The notes below the pieces were generated by a model that saw nothing but the letters and a program-made list of their open reading frames with translations, ran no database searches and was not told where the DNA came from. Both the position numbers and the translations under genes were made by a program. Below, in pieces: positions 3,610 through 60,535 of a stretch of DNA of 64,000 nucleotides. The DNA is taken from sequence record OZ346164.1; one strand, given 5' to 3'. The DNA comes from a phage. Within the stretch, counting starts at the first letter, position 1. Every line of letters starts with the position of its first letter.

Positions 3610-4125
3610 CTATTTAACCTCAAAAACTGGCTCAAGAACCAATATAAAGTCTACACAGTCATCTTCTTCATCCAGAACACCATCAAAGTTCTTAGGAACG
3701 AAGTCGAAGAGGCTCATAACAAAACAGTCAGAAGTGACCCTGATAGTTCCTCCCATGTTCTCTACAGTTAACACTGTACGACTTTCTTTTACCTCCCTCA
3801 GAAGATTACCCACAAAGTCATCCAAGAAGTGCTTCATCAGTGACTTAAAACCTTTAGGGTAATCTGTACCAGAGTATGTTTCAATCTGGGGAACAAGCTT
3901 AACATTTATACTAGTCTTTGTTAAGAATGTATTAGAGAACATACTATCAGGTAACTTACAAACAGTCTTTCCAGTACCTTCATGTTCAATCTCAACAAAA
4001 CCAGCTTCATCGCCACATGTAACTATTTTAAAAGATGCTTCATTCTCATACTGTGAAGCCATAAACTTTTTAAGCATCACTTTAAGGAAGTCTGCATGAG
4101 CATCTTGTAAGAAGATATCAATCAT
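3610..4125 (-). CDS. hypothetical protein
   Basis: 171 aa ORF in minus-strand operon, no recognised motif. Confidence 0.4.
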   Translation of the reverse strand: MIDIFLQDAHADFLKVMLKKFMASQYENEASFKIVTCGDEAGFVEIEHEGTGKTVCKLPDSMFSNTFLTKTSINVKLVPQIETYSGTDYPKGFKSLMKHFLDDFVGNLLREVKESRTVLTVENMGGTIRVTSDCFVMSLFDFVPKNFDGVLDEEDDCVDFILVLEPVFEVK

Positions 4126-25175: not shown

Positions 25176-26375
25176 ATGAACAAAGTACAGATTATTAAAA
25201 AGAATGGCTCACTTGAAGAACCTGATATCAAAAAAGTTTTAGCAGCAGTCACAAAGTCAGCTAACAGAGTTGGTTATAAAGAGCTTCCACCAGATGTTAC
25301 TCAAGCTCTTGAGTCAGCATTTATGAGGATTCTGGTAAAGTCCACTAAGCAGAATAATTTGCTAATTTCGGTAAATGATATTCACAGTATTGTTGAGGGT
25401 GCTTTGGCAGAAGTCAATCACGAGATTTATGAGTCTTACTCAACATATAGAAATTACCGTAAAGAGGTTGCTCAAAATTGGGATGAACTCTACCAGAAGA
25501 CCAAAGATACACTCTTCTTAGGCGACCGAGAAAACGCTAATTTTGACAGCAGTTTAATTTCTACAAAAGGCTCAATTATTCGTGGTTACCTGACTAAAGA
25601 AATCTTTAAACAGTACCATTTAACACCAGAGGAACTTGAAGCCATTGAAAAAGGATTTATCTATATCCATGATTTAAGAGACCTAATTTTTGGTGGTATC
25701 AACTGTTGCCTGTTTGACATTGGTAAAGTCCTGAAAGGTGGCTTTGAAATGTCTGGCATTGAATATTGTGAACCGAAGTCTGTGCTGTCAGCCTTACAGG
25801 TTATTGGTGATGTAGTTCTTTCAGCAACTGCACAGCAATTTGGTGGCTTTACTTTAGCAGAGATTGATAAGGTACTTGTACCGTATGCTAAGAAGTCTCT
25901 ACGTTACCATGCTGAAAAAGCAACAGCTTATGGTATTCCTAAAGAACATTACCACAACTATGTCATGGAGCAGCTACAGATTGAATTAACTCAAGGTTTT
26001 CAGTCTCTTGAAATGAAGCTCAATACTGTGCCTTGTAGCCGTGGTGATTTTGCATTCACAACTTTGACATTCGGGTTACTTGACTCAGATATGTCTAATG
26101 AAGATAACCGACTGCAATACATGATTGCGAGCACTCTCCTAGATGTTCGTATGAATGGACAAGGTAAGAGCAAGAAACCTGTTGTATTCCCTAAACTGGT
26201 TTATATTTATGACCAGAAGAGACACAATGAGAATATCTGTCAAGGCCACCTGTACAGTAAAGCTATTGAGTGTTGCTCTAAAGCTATGTATCCAGATTTC
26301 TTAAGTGTATCTGGACATGGTGCTGTAGCAGAGGCTTTTGAGCGTTCTGGCAAGGTAATTTCCCCGATGGGTTAA
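25176..26375 (+). CDS. nrdD: anaerobic ribonucleotide reductase, exon 1
   Basis: ATP-cone N-terminus; reading frame interrupted, resumes at 26678. Confidence 0.75.
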   Translation: MNKVQIIKKNGSLEEPDIKKVLAAVTKSANRVGYKELPPDVTQALESAFMRILVKSTKQNNLLISVNDIHSIVEGALAEVNHEIYESYSTYRNYRKEVAQNWDELYQKTKDTLFLGDRENANFDSSLISTKGSIIRGYLTKEIFKQYHLTPEELEAIEKGFIYIHDLRDLIFGGINCCLFDIGKVLKGGFEMSGIEYCEPKSVLSALQVIGDVVLSATAQQFGGFTLAEIDKVLVPYAKKSLRYHAEKATAYGIPKEHYHNYVMEQLQIELTQGFQSLEMKLNTVPCSRGDFAFTTLTFGLLDSDMSNEDNRLQYMIASTLLDVRMNGQGKSKKPVVFPKLVYIYDQKRHNENICQGHLYSKAIECCSKAMYPDFLSVSGHGAVAEAFERSGKVISPMG

Positions 26376-26677
26376 CAAGCTCTATAGCTCATCTAAAACG
26401 TGCCTAAACAGGGAAACTCTACAGATGTAGACAATCCTGTGCTAAATGATGTACGATGTAAGAAACTATACAACATAGGAGTCTTACATGCCAAATAACT
26501 TCGAATATGAGTTTGAATACATCTAAATGCCGAACGACTAACCGTGATGAATGTAGCGGTGTAGGGTCAAGCGACTCGAAATGGTACGCTACTTAGAAAT
26601 AAGTAGAAGATATAGTCTGGACTTACTGGCGACAGTAAGCAGCTTGAATAAAGCGGGGTAAGCTTAGCGAACTTACT
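26376..26677 (+). other. group I-like intron in nrdD
   Basis: About 300 nt without ORF, contains CAGGGAA/ATCCTGT (P4-like) and GACTAACC/AGATATAGTCT (P7 R/S-like) elements. Confidence 0.6.
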
Positions 26678-27636
26678 TGAACAACAAGTGTAGAGCATTT
26701 TTATCACCATACCATAACGAACATGGTGAAGAGTTTTATGTAGGTCGTGCTAACATTGGTGCTGTATCTTTGAACTTACCAATGATTTATCAGTACACCA
26801 AAGAGAATGGCTTAGATTTCTGGAAAGAGCTTGATAAGTACCTAGAAATGATTCGCAGCTTCCACAAGAAACGTTACGAAATGATTGCTAATATGCCAGC
26901 AAGTTCTAACCCTCTTGCATTCACACAGGGTGGTCTGTACAAAGGGAATAAGAAACCTACTGACAAGGTTGGCTGGGATATCGTGAAGTCCTTCACAGCT
27001 TCTTTTGGGGTTACTGCGCTTGATGAGCTATCTGTTCTTGCTGAAGGTAAACGACTCCATGAAGTTGGAAGCTGTAGTTTTGCATATGATGTTCTGGCAT
27101 ACATTAACATGAAAACTGAAGAGTTTAAGAACGAAGATGGCTTCTTGTATGCGGTATATGGCACTCCAGCAGAATCACTTTGTGGAACTCAGTTAAAACA
27201 GTTCAGAGATATGTTTGGCGTTATTAAAGGTGTCTCTGACAAGGAATACTTTACAAACAGTTTCCATATGAATGTTGCAGCAGACATCTCACCATTTGAG
27301 AAGCAGGACTTAGAAGAGCCATTCTTCCATATCTGTAGAGGTGGTAGAATCCAGTATGTAAGGGTAGCTAACCCAGAAAACTTAACAGCACTTAAAAGTT
27401 GTATTACAAGAGGGATGTTGAAAGGTTTCTATCAGGGGCTTAACTTTGACTTAGCAATCTGTGAACATTGTGGTAACAGACCAAAGGCTGATGTTGAAGA
27501 ATGTGAGGTTTGCCATTCACATGATATCTCTGTGATTAACAGGGTGTGCGGGTACTTGTCATTCACAAAAATTAAAGGTCAGTCTCGAATGAATGACGCT
27601 AAGATGGCAGAAATTAAGGATAGGGTTTCTATGTAA
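26678..27636 (+). CDS. nrdD: anaerobic ribonucleotide reductase, exon 2
   Basis: C-terminal glycyl-radical motif RVCGYLSF and Cys4 zinc site CEHCG...CEVCH. Confidence 0.8.
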
Positions 27637-56597: not shown

Positions 56598-56969
56598 ATG
56601 AAAAACAGAACAAACAAAGGCCAGTTTAAAAAAGGCCAGTCTGGAAACCCATCTGGAAGACCAAAAGGCTCTCGTAACAAAAGTTCACTCGTAAAAGCTC
56701 AACTGACCATTGATAATTCTGCTGAGTTCGCTGCAAAGCTGTTTGAGGCGATTGTTACAAGGGACGCGGCTAAGCTTGCAGAGTTCGGGTTAAACACAGA
56801 TGACGTAACCATCAAGAGTATGATTGAGGTCGGTAAAACTATCTTTACTCACTCAGCAGGTGAGATGAAAGCACTTGCAGCAGACACTAAGAAGACTCCT
56901 GATAATGGTGGTCAACAACAGACAGATAACAAACCAACGTTCTCTGCTGTAGCGACTCTCAAAAAATAA
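56598..56969 (+). CDS. hypothetical protein with basic N-terminus
   Basis: 123 aa; KGQSGNPSGRPKGSRNK motif. Confidence 0.4.
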   Translation: MKNRTNKGQFKKGQSGNPSGRPKGSRNKSSLVKAQLTIDNSAEFAAKLFEAIVTRDAAKLAEFGLNTDDVTIKSMIEVGKTIFTHSAGEMKALAADTKKTPDNGGQQQTDNKPTFSAVATLKK

Positions 56970-57050
56970 TCTTAAAAGATGTTGACAGACTCTACAAAGT
57001 TGCTCTAAAGTCTGTCACATCAAACAACAAATGAGAGAAGAGAGTAAAAT

Positions 57051-58466
57051 ATGAGCGAGTTATTTAAACATGCGCACCTTCATGCAGGTCGAACTGAAAA
57101 TGGTGCTGTAAACCATACTTCATCAATGTCTGCTCTGGTAGACTTCTACAAAGCCGCTGGCTCAAGCCGTAGCAATGTAGAAGTCTTACCAGACCTGTTC
57201 TACAAAGCTTTGCGTGAGGATGTTGATGTTGCAGTTCGTATTTTACTGCATATGCGAGATGTACGAGAGGGTATGGGTGAGCGTAAAGCCTTCCGAACTG
57301 TTTTACTTCAAGCAATTGAAGATAAGGTTTTAGAACCTACACAGGTTCTTCGCATTATGGATAAGATTGCAGAACTTGGTCGTTTTGATGACTTCAAAAT
57401 CTTCGTAGGTACTCGTTTTGAGACAGATGCCTTCAAACATTTAGAAGCAGCATTACTAGACCCTGCAACAGCAGGTTTGGCAGCTAAGTGGTTACCACGA
57501 GTCAAACCACGTCATAAGCAGTTTGTAAAACGTTTCTGCAAGTTTGCCAACTTGAGTGAGAAAGAGTACCGCACACTGTTGTCTGCACTATCTGATACAG
57601 TTGAGCAAAAAATCTCTGCTAATGAGTTTGGTAAGATTGACTACAGTAAGATTCCTTCACTTGCTGCTGCACGTTACCAAAAACTGTTTAACCGTAAAGA
57701 TGGAGAGCGTTACAAAGCTTACATCGAGTCCTTATCAAAAGGTGAGACTAAGATTAACGCTGGTGCTGTTTACCCATACGATGTGATTAAATCTGTCAAG
57801 TATGGTAATGCAGATGTTGCTAATGAGCAGTGGAAAGCACTACCAAACTGGATGGCAGAAGGTGAAAACATCTTGTGTATGTCTGATGTATCAAGTTCAA
57901 TGTCTTGGGTGAATTTTGGCTCCATTACTGCTCTGGATATTGGTGTATCACTTGCCTTGTATGTAGCAGAACGCAATACAGGTTGCTTTAAGAATGAGTT
58001 AATGGTTTATTCAACAAACCCTCACTTCATCGAACTGAGTGGTGATTTACGAAACCGTCATCGTCAGGTGATGCGACACGTTGAATATGGCTCAACTAAC
58101 TTACAAGCAGCTTTTGACCGCATTCTTGAAACAGGTAAAAGAAACAACTTGACTCAGAAAGATATGCCAAGTAAGCTTATCATCTTCTCCGATATGGAGT
58201 TCAATCAGGTTGATGGAGCTAACGGTCGTACAAACTTTGAAGCAATTCAGAGTAAGTACAAAAAAGCTGGATATGAGATGCCACAACTGGTATTCTGGTA
58301 CTTAGCAAACCGTAATGGTACTTGCGAAGTATCTGTTAAGGATAACGGTGTAGCAATGTTATCAGGGTTCTCTCCAGCCACTTTAAAAGCTCTGCTTGGT
58401 GGTGAGAAGTTTGACCCAATCAGTGTAATGCTCAAAGCAGTAATGATTGACCGTTATATCTGGTAA
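57051..58466 (+). CDS. von Willebrand factor A domain protein
   Basis: MIDAS-like DVSSSMS motif in C-terminal half; 471 aa. Confidence 0.5.
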   Translation: MSELFKHAHLHAGRTENGAVNHTSSMSALVDFYKAAGSSRSNVEVLPDLFYKALREDVDVAVRILLHMRDVREGMGERKAFRTVLLQAIEDKVLEPTQVLRIMDKIAELGRFDDFKIFVGTRFETDAFKHLEAALLDPATAGLAAKWLPRVKPRHKQFVKRFCKFANLSEKEYRTLLSALSDTVEQKISANEFGKIDYSKIPSLAAARYQKLFNRKDGERYKAYIESLSKGETKINAGAVYPYDVIKSVKYGNADVANEQWKALPNWMAEGENILCMSDVSSSMSWVNFGSITALDIGVSLALYVAERNTGCFKNELMVYSTNPHFIELSGDLRNRHRQVMRHVEYGSTNLQAAFDRILETGKRNNLTQKDMPSKLIIFSDMEFNQVDGANGRTNFEAIQSKYKKAGYEMPQLVFWYLANRNGTCEVSVKDNGVAMLSGFSPATLKALLGGEKFDPISVMLKAVMIDRYIW

Positions 58467-58484: not shown

Positions 58485-58513
58485 TTGACAATGTGTTTAA
58501 TACCCTTTAATAT
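58485..58513 (+). promoter_or_regulatory. sigma70-like promoter upstream of tRNA cluster
   Basis: TTGACA-17-TAATAT, flanked by AAGGGTATT/AATACCCTT inverted repeat. Confidence 0.5.
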
Positions 58514-58630
58514 GTTCTACATAGTAGCGAAATGAGAGCTTTTCTAAGATACTGAAAAATATTTTAAAAAAGTTCTTGACAATCACTAAAAAATAATGTT
58601 AAAGTGGTTACATAGAGTTTGAAAAGTTTA

Positions 58631-58793: not shown

Positions 58794-58883
58794 GTTTTGA
58801 CAGAAGACCAATTACAGCAAACTTAATCTACTCATCTGAAAGTTAATCGGACAAAGAAGATATTTGGTCTGGTCATTAAGAAT

Positions 58884-58960: not shown

Positions 58961-59042
58961 AATTTACAGAAGACCGTTTACAGCAATATTTATTAAATTT
59001 TTAGCGGAAAAATTGAAAGATACGGTCTGGTAATACTAAATA

Positions 59043-59298: not shown

Positions 59299-59499
59299 AT
59301 TTTGAGAGGGCTATTTAGCCCCTCCCTTAAAGAGTTCTTACGAGTATTCTTTAAAGGAGCAGAAGACCAAATACAGCAAGAATGTATGATATTTTCAAGC
59401 CAATTCAATTTTGAAAAATTTAAAACTTGGTCTGGCTCAACAAATTTACAGAAGACCGTTTACAGCAAAACTTAAACAATCTATTTCTCGGTAAAGAAA

Positions 59500-59540
59500 A
59501 GGCGAAGGTTCGATTCCTTCACTCGGCAGAGGTCGAGTTG
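59500..59540 (+). ncRNA. tRNA-like T-arm plus acceptor minihelix (not a full tRNA)
   Basis: GAAGG-TTCGATT-CCTTC T-arm-like hairpin directly followed by ACTCGGC-AGAG-GTCGAGT hairpin and D-loop-like GTTGGTGTAATGGTAG. Confidence 0.4.
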
Positions 59541-59730
59541 GTGTAATGGTAGCACTTAAGATGATAAACAACGGTCTGGTAATTATCTTTGCAGTAGCTT
59601 ATGTGGCTAATTATGTCGTCCCATGAGTGCCGATGAATTTCCTTAGCATGATTCTAGATTAGCTTAATAGGAAATGACTCTACAGACCCTTTAGCAAGGT
59701 CTGCGTAGGTTACTGCAAAGATGATTTAAT

Positions 59731-59806
59731 GGAAGTGTAGCAGAATGGTGATGCGGCAGACTTTTAATCTGACAGGCGATGGGTTCGAATCCCTCCACTT
59801 CTACCA
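59731..59806 (+). tRNA. tRNA-Lys (anticodon UUU)
   Basis: Acceptor GGAAGTG/CACTTCT, loop CTTTTAA, TTCGAAT T-loop, encoded CCA. Confidence 0.65.
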
Positions 59807-59811
59807 AAAAT

Positions 59812-59888
59812 GGTTCAGTCGCAGATAAGGTAATGCAAGGGTTTCATAAGCCCTATGAATGTGGGTTCGATTCCCATCTGAACCTCCA
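59812..59888 (+). tRNA. tRNA-Met (anticodon CAU)
   Basis: Acceptor GGTTCAG/CTGAACC, stem AGGGT/GCCCT, loop TTCATAA, encoded CCA. Confidence 0.7.
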
Positions 59889-59890
59889 AT

Positions 59891-59966
59891 GCTGTGAAAG
59901 CACATATGGATGTGCATTCGGCTGATAACCGAAAGGCAGAAGGTTCGAATCCTTCTCACAGTACCA
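59891..59966 (+). tRNA. tRNA-Ile (anticodon GAU)
   Basis: Stem TTCGG/CCGAA, loop CTGATAA, T arm GAAGG-TTCGAAT-CCTTC, encoded CCA. Confidence 0.75.
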
Positions 59967-59982
59967 ATTTCAATAAAGTTGT

Positions 59983-60010
59983 TGACATTAAGATGTGACT
60001 ACTTTATAGT
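59983..60010 (+). promoter_or_regulatory. sigma70-like internal promoter in tRNA cluster
   Basis: TTGACA, 16-17 bp spacer, TATAGT. Confidence 0.5.
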
Positions 60011-60214
60011 AACCTTAGTTTTCGTTGCGTAGCGTCTATTTTGCAAATTTAAAATAAATGCAAACGACAATGTTTTTCTGGCAGTAGCTTGATAGGCTAA
60101 ACACCAGTGAGGTCTTCCAATCCCTCATCAAAGAATTTGGCGTACTCGCCCACGGTATGATTAATAAGGTGGGCATCTTTAAGGGCTTTCTAATAGAGTC
60201 TTTAAAGATAATTA

Positions 60215-60296
60215 CGGGGCGTATCTCAGCGGTCTTCTAAACCGCCGTTAACCGAGTAAGTGGAGTATGCGGGTTCGAGTCCTGCCGCCTCGACCA
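60215..60296 (+). tRNA. atypical tRNA-like gene, possible anticodon UCU (Arg)
   Basis: Good T arm and acceptor (CGGGGCG/CGCCTCG, CCA encoded) and GCGGT-CTTCTAA-ACCGC anticodon-like hairpin, but D-arm spacing non-canonical. Confidence 0.35.
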
Positions 60297-60439: not shown

Positions 60440-60522
60440 ATGGGACGATGTTAAGACTCTAAGGCATGAGCAACGGCCTCCAAAACCGTTTCAAAGGGGT
60501 TCAACTCCTCCGTCCCATGCCA
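60440..60522 (+). tRNA. tRNA-Trp (anticodon CCA), enlarged D region
   Basis: Acceptor ATGGGAC/GTCCCAT, loop CTCCAAA, TTCAACT T-loop, CCA encoded; about 7 extra nt in D region. Confidence 0.5.
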
Positions 60523-60535
60523 AAGTCTTATTAGG

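What the first reader, a model, noticed from the sequence alone, without database searches (positions are those of the whole stretch)
57051..58466. vWA/MIDAS protein immediately upstream of the tRNA and tRNA-like RNA cluster
The 471 aa protein has a MIDAS-like DVSSSMS motif in its C-terminal half and an uncharacterised helical N-terminal part. A helical module followed by a vWA domain is the architecture of Ro60/Rsr proteins, which bind tRNA-like Y RNAs that are usually encoded next to them; here tRNA-like non-tRNA elements lie just downstream. This is a weak structural analogy and not a demonstrated homology.
Basis: inference. Interest (0 to 1): 0.4.

Follow-up and report, generated by a model that had tools for sequence, protein, structure and literature searches.

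The report
Phage Ro60-like protein with Y-like RNAs
This Felix O1-like phage gene encodes a highly diverged relative of the Ro60 RNA-binding ring protein, and four copies of a previously uncatalogued small RNA that accompanies this gene family in many phages (one copy with a built-in tRNA mimic) lie between the tRNA genes just downstream, so the pair probably forms a phage Ro/Y-RNA particle that could be tested in E. coli.

Summary

Just downstream, between tRNA genes, lie four copies of one RNA element: a closing stem, then UUA-CAGCAA, a variable interior and the 3' arm. The fourth copy carries a V/T-arm/closed-acceptor/D-arm module, the YrlA-type tRNA mimic.

A covariance model of the short form finds 151 matches in 163 homologous loci from phages and bacterial assemblies. 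All 151 are on the gene's strand, the median distance is about 200 nt, and none lies inside the gene. It finds nothing near a canonical TROVE phage gene, and no Rfam family matches.

This is best read as a divergent phage Ro60/Y-RNA system with its own RNA signature. Binding and function remain inferred.

The parts
57051..58466 (+). Ro60-like protein of 471 aa. The N-terminal helical ring of about 265 residues is the Pfam DUF2828 region, and the C-terminal vWA domain with a complete MIDAS motif is Pfam DUF7788.
56982..57011 (+). Sigma-70-like promoter candidate upstream of the Ro60-like gene (TTGACA-18-TAAAGT).
   Evidence: Consensus scan, 10 of 12 positions. This is a pattern match only.
58485..58605 (+). 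Two sigma-70-like promoter candidates (58485-58513 and 58576-58605) between the gene and the first tRNA. They probably drive the tRNA/Y-like RNA array.
   Evidence: Consensus scan, 10 of 12 positions each, the second with a TG extension. The two share a 28-nt direct repeat (D10). Pattern match only.
58797..58878 (+). Y-like RNA element E1 (short form). It has an outer 4-bp stem, an AGA bulge, a 7-bp stem AGACCAA/UUGGUCU, the linker and motif UUA-CAGCAA, and a variable interior. It fills the gap between tRNA-Glu (ends 58793) and tRNA-Met (starts 58884).
   Evidence: Motif search, fold, model R1 43.3 bits and E 2.5e-8 (this copy was in the seed).
58963..59036 (+). Y-like RNA element E2 (short form), stem AGACCGU/ACGGUCU. 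It fills the gap between tRNA-Met (ends 58960) and tRNA-Asn (starts 59044).
   Evidence: R1 51.5 bits, E 1.8e-10 (seed member).
59356..59441 (+). Y-like RNA element E3 (short form), stem AGACCAA/UUGGUCU with outer stem GAGC/GCUC.
   Evidence: R1 25.3 bits, E 0.0011, and this copy was not in the seed.
59445..59585 (+). Y-like RNA element E4 (long, YrlA-type). It has the same closing stem and CAGCAA motif. The interior holds, in order, a V hairpin, a T-arm (GAAGG-UUCGAUU-CCUUC), a closed acceptor-like hairpin (ACUCGGC-AGAG-GUCGAGU) and a D-arm (GUGU-AAUGGUA-GCAC).
   Evidence: Sequence and fold. The same module order is seen in Moogle, mycobacteriophage BigCheese and six metagenomic elements from five contigs. 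The layout matches the YrlA description in PMC4201824. The R1 5' part scores E 0.039 and this copy was not in the seed.
59681..59709 (+). Possible stripped-down fifth copy: hairpin CAGACC-CUUUAGCAA-GGUCUG.
   Evidence: Read from the sequence. The fold is weak, z -1.07. The motif is UAGCAA rather than CAGCAA, so this is tentative.

Best explanation
The gene encodes a strongly diverged member of the Ro60 (TROVE ring + vWA/MIDAS) structural family. The four stem-UUACAGCAA RNAs just downstream are its cognate Y-like RNAs. The array is probably transcribed with the phage tRNAs from the promoters at 58485-58605. Each element is then freed by the tRNA-processing enzymes that cut the flanking tRNAs, because E1 and E2 fill their inter-tRNA gaps almost exactly.

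I infer that the protein binds the conserved 5' side of each RNA, meaning the A-G-R start of the stem plus the single-stranded UUACAGCAA. This parallels canonical Ro60, which mainly contacts the 5' strand of the Y RNA stem. E4 additionally presents a tRNA-shaped module (V, T, closed acceptor, D), like bacterial YrlA.

By analogy with Deinococcus, Salmonella and Thermus-phage Ro60/Y RNPs, the particle would use the RNA as a tether or gate. That would connect the ring to a host exoribonuclease such as PNPase, or to tRNA-handling enzymes. The effect would be either surveillance of misfolded or damaged structured RNAs (phage tRNAs are the obvious clients) or modulation of host RNA decay during infection.

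**Shown here:** the fold, the vWA homology, the RNA family, and its strict linkage and co-orientation with the gene family.
**Inferred:** binding, processing, the partner enzyme and the biological role.
For: **Protein**
- The AF2 model is confident: pLDDT 88.6, pTM 0.88.
- Foldseek's top eight matches are all Ro60/TROVE.
- hhalign of the family against 24 canonical TROVE proteins gives 81% probability and E 1.2e-5. It aligns DVSGSM, GSTN/GGTD, SDMEF/TDNET and VSGFS/VSGFD.
- The MIDAS residues are invariant.
- The protein is a full-length homologue of 'Ro-like RNA binding protein' genes of mycobacteriophages.
- An independent HHpred result links the Listeria phage homologue CKA15_055 to Rsr (PMC12282133).

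**RNA**
- Four motif copies occur against 0.05 expected, and all share one fold.
- In the whole window, searched unfiltered on both strands, the four best R1 hits are exactly these elements. The next best hit has E 0.85.
- In 83 phage/viral loci there are 75 hits at E <= 0.05. All 75 are on the gene's strand, in 45 loci, at a median of 189 nt from the gene, with none inside it.
- In 80 independent GTDB genome loci there are 76 hits, all 76 on the gene's strand, in 51 loci, at a median of 214 nt.
- A regex scan gives 0.554 elements per kb near the gene on the same strand, against 0.047 per kb on the opposite strand.
- Features the scan did not impose are conserved: G at stem position 2 in 90% of elements, the UUA linker, and a G after the 3' arm.
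- The inner stem pairs take all four Watson-Crick types.
- T-loop hairpins occur in 12 of 28 long elements and 0 of 52 short ones. The order T-AS-D recurs with unrelated but always complementary AS sequences.
- The YrlA layout and 5'-strand recognition are described in PMC4201824.
Against: - No experiment shows that this protein binds these RNAs, or that the RNAs accumulate in Felix O1-like infections.
- Sequence methods never connect the N-terminal half to TROVE. Pfam fails even at E <= 10 on five family members. phmmer and hmmsearch against the PDB find nothing. hhalign covers only the vWA domain.
- The conserved RNA motif CAGCAA differs from the GNCGAAN0-1G / CGAA motif of published bacterial and phage Y RNAs, so the binding mode cannot simply be transferred.
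- About 40% of homologous loci show no element at E <= 0.05 within the flanks examined. Vibrio phage ValKK3 is one example.
- The seed for model R1 was selected by requiring a paired stem, so the pair statistics are partly circular. The strand and position statistics are not.
- The Listeria homologue was detected in purified virions, which would be unusual for a purely cytoplasmic RNA-surveillance factor.
- The abundant Listeria RNA named by coordinates in that study (26,236-26,727) is not one of my three elements.
Confidence: 0.72

Rival explanations
1. The protein has a Ro60-like fold but is not an RNA-binding partner of the neighbouring elements. It would act through its MIDAS site as a protein-protein adaptor or a virion-associated/ejected protein. 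The CAGCAA stem-loops would be independent features of the transcription unit, such as processing or spacer signals for RNase E/P/Z, stabilisers or attenuators.
For: The Listeria phage homologue CKA15_055 was found in purified virions by mass spectrometry, with 20 peptides and 57% coverage. vWA/MIDAS domains are typically protein-interaction modules, and the vWA-only structural matches include Rea1/midasin, NorD and integrins. The N-terminal half has no detectable sequence similarity to TROVE. E1 and E2 sit exactly in inter-tRNA gaps, where processing signals would be expected.
Confidence: 0.15
2. Element E4 is the tRNA-like (acceptor) part of a circularly permuted two-piece tmRNA, and the coding part is the tag-like RNA at 60017-60214 (ANDNVFLAVA**). 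On this reading the locus encodes a phage trans-translation RNA rather than a Y RNA.
For: ARAGORN calls a permuted tmRNA in Citrobacter phage Moogle (L003 8382-9130, tag ANDNVFLAVA**), combining the E4 orthologue with the tag-like stretch. The tag-like stretch and its promoter are nearly invariant in four phages and show compensatory changes in one hairpin. That RNA is strongly structured, z -3.51. Rfam tmRNA models give weak sub-threshold hits at 15.8 and 22 bits.
Against: ARAGORN makes no such call in the window, in five close relatives or in H12. It also makes none at the T-AS-D modules of seven other loci. The Moogle call spans three bona fide tRNA genes and depends on a GCCA in the hairpin loop that the window lacks, where the loop is AGAG. 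The E4 acceptor hairpin has no G3:U70 pair and no CCA, so the alanine identity a tmRNA needs is absent (the identity rule is from established knowledge). The same closing stem and CAGCAA motif are shared with E1-E3 and with about 150 elements elsewhere that have no tag-like neighbour.
Confidence: 0.04
3. The resemblance is convergent or an artefact. The AlphaFold model would be biased toward a Ro60-like arrangement, the protein would be an unrelated helical-repeat + vWA protein, and the RNA elements would be a selfish or repeat sequence that happens to travel with the gene.
For: Sequence identity to Ro60 in the structural alignments is only 9-16%. There is no Pfam TROVE match. The model is a prediction and not an experimental structure.
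Against: No templates were used, and all five models agree, with pLDDT 85-89. The vWA domain is linked to the Ro60 vWA by sequence profiles, including the unusual C-terminal VSGF(D/S) motif. Domain order and relative arrangement match three independently solved Ro60 structures. The elements show no terminal repeats or coding capacity, and their stems covary instead of being conserved in sequence. That pattern indicates selection on RNA structure and not a DNA repeat.
Confidence: 0.05

Closest known systems
Bacterial and phage Ro60 (Rsr) / Y RNA ribonucleoproteins, in particular the YrlA-type Y RNAs (Chen et al. 2014, PMC4201824) and Thermus phage phiLo Ro60 with Yrl1/Yrl2 (PMC12135203; PDB 9KOP, 9L5Y)
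   Different: The protein is not recognised by Pfam TROVE or vWA_Ro60. It belongs instead to DUF2828 + DUF7788. A canonical phage Ro60, McGee gp233, scores TROVE 9.4e-50 and vWA_Ro60 4.3e-54. The protein is shorter, at 471 aa against about 530-550. The conserved RNA motif is UUA-CAGCAA next to an A-G-R...Y-C-U stem, not GNCGAAN0-1G / CGAA. The CAGCAA RNA model finds nothing in 28 kb around the canonical phage gene. In this phage the RNAs are interleaved with about 25 tRNA genes.
Mycobacteriophage 'Ro-like RNA binding protein' genes of the DUF2828 type (e.g. BigCheese gp55) and PHROG 850 'RNA-binding protein'
   Same: These are direct full-length homologues at 33% identity and E ~1e-76, with the same Pfam architecture. 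BigCheese has three CAGCAA elements immediately downstream, and the middle one carries a T-AS-D module.
   Different: The host range and genome context differ: BigCheese has no tRNA array. To my knowledge from the searchable library, only the protein label exists for these genes. I found no description of their RNA partners.
Listeria phage P100-like CKA15_055 and its neighbouring abundant non-coding RNAs (PMC12282133)
   Same: It is a homologous DUF2828 protein. That study's HHpred best match was Deinococcus Rsr, and its authors speculated that abundant unannotated RNAs near the tRNA genes are Y RNAs. Three CAGCAA elements lie 71-278 nt upstream of the gene in the P100-like phage LMSP-25.
   Different: The only abundant region the paper gives by coordinates (26,236-26,727) maps about 0.6-1.1 kb further upstream, to a different ~490-nt RNA and not to the CAGCAA elements. 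The protein was found in virions, which has not been examined for Felix O1-like phages.
tmRNA, including permuted two-piece tmRNA
   Same: Both involve a permuted order of T-arm, acceptor and D-like elements. A tag-like reading frame, ANDNVFLAVA**, lies nearby.
   Different: E4 has no G3:U70, no CCA and no attached coding region. ARAGORN makes the call in only one relative.

Membership tests
Ro60 / Rsr (TROVE + vWA) proteins | N-terminal HEAT-like helical repeats forming the TROVE ring | tested here: met
Ro60 / Rsr (TROVE + vWA) proteins | Sequence membership of the TROVE domain family (Pfam PF05731) | tested here: not met
   There is no TROVE hit at E <= 1 for the window protein, nor at E <= 10 for four distant homologues. 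hhalign against 24 canonical TROVE proteins does not align the N-terminal half. The positive control, McGee gp233, scores 9.4e-50.
Ro60 / Rsr (TROVE + vWA) proteins | C-terminal vWA domain with MIDAS, homologous to the Ro60 vWA | tested here: met
   DxSxS...T...D is invariant as D279, S281, S283, T349 and D381. hhalign gives 81% probability and E 1.2e-5 over 193 columns to the Ro60 vWA, with shared motifs. Pfam assigns the region to DUF7788 rather than vWA_Ro60.
Ro60 / Rsr (TROVE + vWA) proteins | Binds Y RNA on the outer ring surface and misfolded RNA 3' ends in the central cavity | not testable with these tools
   This needs EMSA, CLIP or a structure of the complex. Only genomic linkage to candidate RNAs is shown.
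Y RNA (bacterial YrlA type) | Encoded close to, and on the same strand as, the Ro60 gene | tested here: met
   E1-E4 lie 331-1119 nt downstream on the + strand. Across 163 other loci, all 151 model hits are on the gene's strand, at a median of 189 and 214 nt from the gene.
Y RNA (bacterial YrlA type) | The 5' and 3' ends pair to form a closing stem, with a large internal region | tested here: met
   All four elements fold this way. A 7-bp stem is 98.9% paired in 38 elements, and the inner pairs take all Watson-Crick types. The seed was chosen for pairing, so this is partly circular. Non-seed hits E3 and Moogle E2 also fit.
Y RNA (bacterial YrlA type) | tRNA-like domain with T-arm, closed acceptor-like stem and D-arm in the order (V)-T-AS-D | tested here: met
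   E4 has a V hairpin, then GAAGG-UUCGAUU-CCUUC, then ACUCGGC-AGAG-GUCGAGU, then GUGU-AAUGGUA-GCAC. The same order appears in eight other elements from seven phages or contigs. The definition is from PMC4201824. E1-E3 lack the module and are comparable to YrlB-type short RNAs.
Y RNA (bacterial YrlA type) | Conserved Ro-binding motif GNCGAAN0-1G (bacteria) or GGUCCGA (metazoa) near the 5' end | tested here: not met
   None of E1-E4 contains it. The conserved motif is UUA-CAGCAA after an A-G-R stem start.
Y RNA (bacterial YrlA type) | Match to a curated RNA family model | tested here: inconclusive
   There is no Rfam 15 hit at E <= 1 in the window region or at gathering score in six related loci. 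Rfam also reports nothing in the DUF2828-type mycobacteriophage locus, which carries the same elements. Rfam was not run on the canonical TROVE locus (McGee), so no positive control exists and its silence is uninformative.
tmRNA (permuted) | Alanine identity (G3:U70, A73) and a CCA end on the tRNA-like domain, linked to a tag-coding region | tested here: not met
   The E4 acceptor hairpin pairs G1-C72, U2-G71, C3-G70 and so on, and its loop is AGAG with no CCA. ARAGORN makes no tmRNA call in the window.

The most novel reading that the evidence does not exclude
DUF2828/DUF7788 proteins together with the stem-UUACAGCAA RNAs would form a second, previously unrecognised branch of Ro60/Y-RNA particles. 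This branch would have its own RNA recognition code and would be spread across hundreds of phage lineages infecting Proteobacteria, Firmicutes, Actinobacteria and Campylobacterota, as well as their prophages. In tRNA-rich lytic phages such as Felix O1, the particle would be a dedicated guardian of the phage tRNA pool. It could, for example, present a tRNA decoy (E4) to host anticodon nucleases or tRNA-targeting defence systems, or triage damaged tRNAs for repair or decay. The conserved tag-like RNA next door (ANDNVFLAVA**) could belong to the same translation-rescue toolkit.
Probability: 0.2. Interest if true: 0.8.

Novelty: new variant of a known kind. Interest (0 to 1): 0.6.

Why it matters
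Ro60/Y-RNA particles are conserved from bacteria to humans, yet their roles in bacteria and phages are still poorly understood. Published surveys started from genes annotated as TROVE, so the DUF2828-type family was outside their scope. This family is large: 710 phage records in one collection, and more than 2,400 protein clusters among the 8,000 candidates scored.

Recognising that this family has the Ro60 fold, and that it travels with its own RNA family, has three consequences.

1. It enlarges the known distribution of Ro/Y systems.
2. It supplies a new conserved RNA motif with which to probe how Ro-like rings recognise RNA.
3. It places a testable example in Felix O1-like phages that grow on E. 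coli K-12 and Salmonella, where knock-outs, pull-downs and small-RNA sequencing are routine.

It would also correct annotations. The four elements are currently unannotated, or overlapped by spurious small ORFs such as vB_EcoM_H12 CDS0024/0025.

Tried and rejected
- **Sequence searches for Ro60.** phmmer and hmmsearch of the protein, its family profile and each half against PDB sequences found no Ro60. Pfam found no TROVE in five family members. I did not read this as absence of relationship, because the fold searches and the vWA profile-profile alignment are positive.
- **Rfam.** Searches at permissive and gathering thresholds found no Y RNA family. I treated this as uninformative, because I had no positive control in which an Rfam family detects a published phage Y RNA.
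- **Alignment of the long elements.** MAFFT on the T-AS-D elements could not keep the arms in register. I therefore dropped an alignment-based covariation count for the tRNA-like module and relied on the per-sequence folds.
- **Link to the Listeria transcriptome.** I tested whether my three Listeria elements were the abundant RNA region reported for phage CKA15. They are not, and lie about 0.6 kb away, so I do not claim expression evidence.
- **tmRNA reading of E4.** ARAGORN prompted this idea in Moogle, and I rejected it on identity elements and lack of replication.
- **RNA ligase partner.** I looked in a fully annotated Felixounavirus. Only a polynucleotide kinase and a phosphatase are annotated, so an Rtc-like repair module is not supported for this phage. 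RtcB and Rnl2 genes do lie near the homologue in Listeria and Aeromonas phages.
- **Literature.** Searches for DUF2828, for Felix O1 with Ro60/Y RNA/TROVE, for Ro-like phage proteins and for TROVE with RtcB and vWA found no prior description of this RNA family.
Full report
**Observation.**

The ORF at 57051-58466 (+) is real and encodes 471 aa. The window belongs to a Felix O1-like myovirus. The 4.5 kb around the gene is 80-99% identical to 278 phage records, mostly Escherichia, Salmonella and Shigella Felixounavirus. The motif DVSSSMS occupies residues 279-285. In a 40-sequence alignment reaching down to 40% identity, D279, S281, S283, T349 and D381 are invariant, which is a complete MIDAS signature. 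ARAGORN finds 25 tRNA genes on the same strand, beginning 166 nt after the stop codon.

**What the protein is.**

Pfam assigns DUF2828 (2.6e-29) and DUF7788 (5.6e-43). PHROGs assigns family 850, labelled 'RNA-binding protein' (2e-183). GenBank records call it 'vWFA protein', 'RNA-binding protein', 'DUF2828 family protein' or hypothetical.

Sequence searches do not reach Ro60. This holds for phmmer of the protein or of either half, and for an HMM of the family, all against PDB sequences. No family member matches Pfam TROVE, even at E <= 10.

The fold is nonetheless unambiguous. An AlphaFold2 model built from the 40-sequence alignment is confident (pLDDT 88.6, pTM 0.88, five concordant models, no templates).

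- **Foldseek:** the eight best PDB matches are all Ro60/TROVE proteins aligned end to end (E 7e-9 to 1e-6). Isolated vWA domains follow only at E >= 2e-3.

To test homology by sequence I fetched a canonical phage Ro60, mycobacteriophage McGee gp233, which scores TROVE 9.4e-50 and vWA_Ro60 4.3e-54. I built a 24-sequence profile from its relatives. hhalign between the two family profiles gives 81% probability and E 1.2e-5 over 193 columns covering the vWA domain. It lines up DVSGSM, GSTN/GGTD, SDMEF/TDNET and the distinctive VSGFS/VSGFD. The N-terminal ring is not aligned.

The vWA halves are therefore homologous at sequence level. The ring is linked by fold and by conserved domain order only.

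Two further results agree with this. The protein is 33% identical over its full length (E ~1e-76) to mycobacteriophage genes that SEA-PHAGES annotators label 'Ro-like RNA binding protein'. A 2025 study of Listeria phage CKA15 reported Deinococcus Rsr as the best HHpred match of the homologue CKA15_055.

**What lies downstream.**

Reading the sequence showed a repeated motif, AGAAGACCnnWTACAGCAA. It occurs four times in the 64-kb window, all on the + strand between 58802 and 59468, against 0.05 expected by chance.

Each copy folds into the same frame: a 4-bp outer stem, an AGA bulge, and a 7-8 bp stem AGACCnn/nnGGUCU. The two variable pairs change in a compensatory way between copies (AA/UU versus GU/AC). 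After the 5' arm comes single-stranded UUA-CAGCAA, then a variable interior.

E1 (58797-58878) and E2 (58963-59036) fill the gaps between tRNA-Glu and tRNA-Met, and between tRNA-Met and tRNA-Asn, almost exactly. Cleavage by the tRNA-processing enzymes would therefore release them as RNAs of about 75-85 nt. This is an inference.

E4 (59445-59585) is longer. Inside the same frame it has, in order:
- a small hairpin;
- a T-arm, GAAGG-UUCGAUU-CCUUC;
- a 7-bp hairpin closed by a tetraloop, ACUCGGC-AGAG-GUCGAGU;
- a D-arm, GUGU-AAUGGUA-GCAC.

This is the V-T-AS-D permutation that Chen et al. described for YrlA, the tRNA-mimicking Y RNA encoded next to bacterial Ro60 genes (PMC4201824).

**Is the RNA tied to the protein?**

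I fetched homologous loci from annotated phages. These were Yersinia P778, Citrobacter Moogle, Mycobacterium BigCheese, Vibrio ValKK3, Listeria LMSP-25, Campylobacter NCTC12673, Aeromonas 4_4572 and a Staphylococcus phage. The same architecture was visible by eye next to the gene in BigCheese and P778.

*Regex scan.* The scan required only CAGCAA, a 1-4 nt linker and a >=7-bp stem closing within 150 nt. I ran it over 88 loci, including 80 IMG/VR contigs. It found 0.554 elements per kb on the gene's strand within 1 kb of the gene. The comparison values were 0.047 per kb on the opposite strand, 0.072 and 0.031 per kb further away, and 0.057 per kb inside the gene. 57 loci had at least one same-strand element near the gene, against 8 with an opposite-strand one.

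Features the scan did not impose are also conserved: G at the second stem position (90%), an A-G-R...Y-C-U stem base, the UUA linker (62%, 85% and 67% at its three positions), an A-rich tract before the 3' arm, and a G after it.

*Covariance model.* 38 short elements aligned in register. The stem is 98.9% paired, and the four inner pairs take all four Watson-Crick types, while the outer A-U and G-C pairs are conserved. The seed was chosen for pairing, so that count is partly circular. I built covariance model R1 from this alignment.

- **Window** (unfiltered, both strands): the four best hits are exactly E2, E1, E3 and E4. E3 (E 0.0011) and E4 (E 0.039) were not in the seed. The next hit has E 0.85.
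- **83 phage/viral loci** (734 kb): 75 hits at E <= 0.05, all on the gene's strand, in 45 loci. The median distance from the gene is 189 nt, 69 lie within 1 kb and none is inside the gene.
- **Replication set** of 80 loci from GTDB species genomes, none used for the model: 76 hits, again all on the gene's strand, in 51 loci, at a median of 214 nt.
- **Negative control:** the model finds nothing (E <= 10, unfiltered) in 28 kb around the canonical TROVE gene of phage McGee.

No Rfam 15 family matches the elements in the window or in seven related loci.

**The tRNA-like module is a recurrent option.**

Among elements found by the closing-stem scan, 12 of 28 long ones (>= 85 nt) contain a T-loop hairpin, against 0 of 52 short ones. 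The order T-arm, closed hairpin, D-arm recurs in the window, Moogle, BigCheese and six metagenomic elements from five contigs. The middle hairpin has a different sequence each time yet always pairs. In one contig the CAGCAA stem encloses a complete tRNA-Thr.

**Context.**

tRNA genes occur in the flanks of 30 of 83 loci, and all 183 tRNAs are co-oriented with the gene. An RtcB-type ligase lies about 1.3 kb from the Listeria homologue, and Rnl2 about 3.7 kb from the Aeromonas one. A fully annotated Felixounavirus has a polynucleotide kinase and a phosphatase but no RNA ligase.

**Mechanism.**

The best-supported reading is a phage Ro60-like ring protein with cognate Y-like RNAs. The protein probably recognises the conserved 5' side of the RNA, as canonical Ro60 does. 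The RNA probably acts as a tether or gate toward a host nuclease or toward tRNA-handling enzymes. The precedents are Deinococcus and Salmonella RYPER, and Thermus phage phiLo, whose Ro60-Yrl complexes bind host PNPase and attenuate it. Binding, processing and the biological role are inferred, not shown.

**Rivals.**

1. *A MIDAS-based protein adaptor or virion protein, with the RNAs as unrelated processing signals.* The virion detection of the Listeria homologue supports this. The linkage statistics and the tRNA-mimic module argue against it.
2. *E4 as part of a permuted tmRNA.* ARAGORN makes this call only in Moogle. E4 lacks G3:U70 and CCA, and no such call is made in the window, in six close relatives or at seven other T-AS-D modules.
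3. *Convergence or a modelling artefact.* The sequence-level vWA homology and the agreement with three solved Ro60 structures argue against this.

**Comparison with what is known.**

Phage Ro60 with Y RNAs is established. Examples are cluster C mycobacteriophages such as ET08, CcrColossus, phage G and phiLo. This system differs in three ways.
- The protein belongs to a separate sequence family, DUF2828/DUF7788.
- The conserved RNA motif is UUA-CAGCAA, not GNCGAA.
- In this phage the RNAs are embedded in a tRNA array.

Chen et al. searched only genomes annotated with a TROVE protein. In the searchable library I found no description of these RNAs, nor of a Ro/Y system in Felix O1-like phages. 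The protein label 'RNA-binding / Ro-like' already exists in databases. I therefore rate the finding as a new variant of a known kind.

**Limits.**

- About 40% of homologous loci show no element in the flanks at E <= 0.05.
- The attempted link to published Listeria transcript data did not hold. The named abundant region is a different RNA.
- All structural statements rest on a predicted model.

Noticed in passing
window 59982-60214 (+): A near-consensus promoter (TTGACA-17-TATAGT, 11 of 12 positions) is followed by a ~200-nt strongly structured RNA (MFE -56.1 kcal/mol, z -3.51). The RNA contains GCAAACGACAAUGUUUUUCUGGCAGUAGCUUGAUAG, which reads ANDNVFLAVA followed by two stop codons and resembles a tmRNA tag (E. 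coli ANDENYALAA, from memory). It is nearly invariant in Moogle, H12 and garuso, with compensatory changes in one hairpin. ARAGORN reports the same tag in Moogle as a permuted tmRNA, and Rfam tmRNA scores are below threshold. It has no obvious tRNA-like domain of its own.
   Followed up: partly
window 60215-60296 (+): A tRNA-like element has acceptor stem CGGGGCG/CGCCUCG with a G3:U70 pair, A73 and an encoded CCA. It has an anticodon loop CU-UCU-AA, no D stem and a long variable region. It occupies the position where Moogle and H12 have an ordinary tRNA-Arg(UCU). It scores 31.7 bits on Rfam tRNA and is not called by ARAGORN.
   Followed up: partly
window 60441-60530 (+): This is a degenerate tRNA-like sequence with a T-arm-like GGGGUUCAACUCCUC and an acceptor-like GGGACG/CGUCCC. 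Its only match is a weak Rfam tRNA-Sec hit (23 bits, E 0.57). It is probably a decayed tRNA gene.
   Followed up: partly
window 59681-59709 (+): A short hairpin, CAGACC-CUUUAGCAA-GGUCUG, looks like a minimal or decayed fifth copy of the Y-like element. It has the same stem sequence, UAGCAA instead of CAGCAA, and no interior.
   Followed up: partly
window 56598-56969 (+): A 123-aa DUF5681 protein (Pfam 2.3e-14; PHROG 4114, unknown function) has a basic GNPxGRPKG-type N-terminus. It is encoded directly upstream of the Ro60-like gene here and at the same position in garuso, Moogle, H12 and Yersinia phage P778. It may be a functional partner.
   Followed up: no
L006 3447-3938 (Listeria phage LMSP-25; corresponds to CKA15 26,236-26,727): This unannotated ~490-nt region has its own promoter-like sequence and corresponds to the most highly transcribed region reported for Listeria phage CKA15. 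It has no Rfam match and lies about 1 kb upstream of the DUF2828 gene. A 'drum' RNA (RF02958, 50.2 bits) lies in the same tRNA cluster at L006 941-1039.
   Followed up: partly
L049 3734-3833 and L031 257-707: In one viral contig the CAGCAA closing stem encloses a complete tRNA-Thr(UGU) gene (3753-3824). Another contig carrying the gene and a YrlA-type element also has a separate permuted tmRNA with tag ANTNFALAA.
   Followed up: no
L001 6406-7051 (phage garuso), compared with window 59806-59891: Garuso has an HNH endonuclease gene inserted between tRNA-Met and tRNA-Ile in the array, and the window lacks it. Copy number of the Y-like elements also varies among close relatives, from two to four by the strict scan. 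The array is therefore a hotspot of rearrangement.
   Followed up: no
L003 (Citrobacter phage Moogle, NC_027293): In the locus view of this RefSeq record the tRNA features appear on the strand opposite the Ro-like gene. Rfam and ARAGORN place all of them on the gene's strand, so this is probably a strand error, either in the record or in the table.
   Followed up: no
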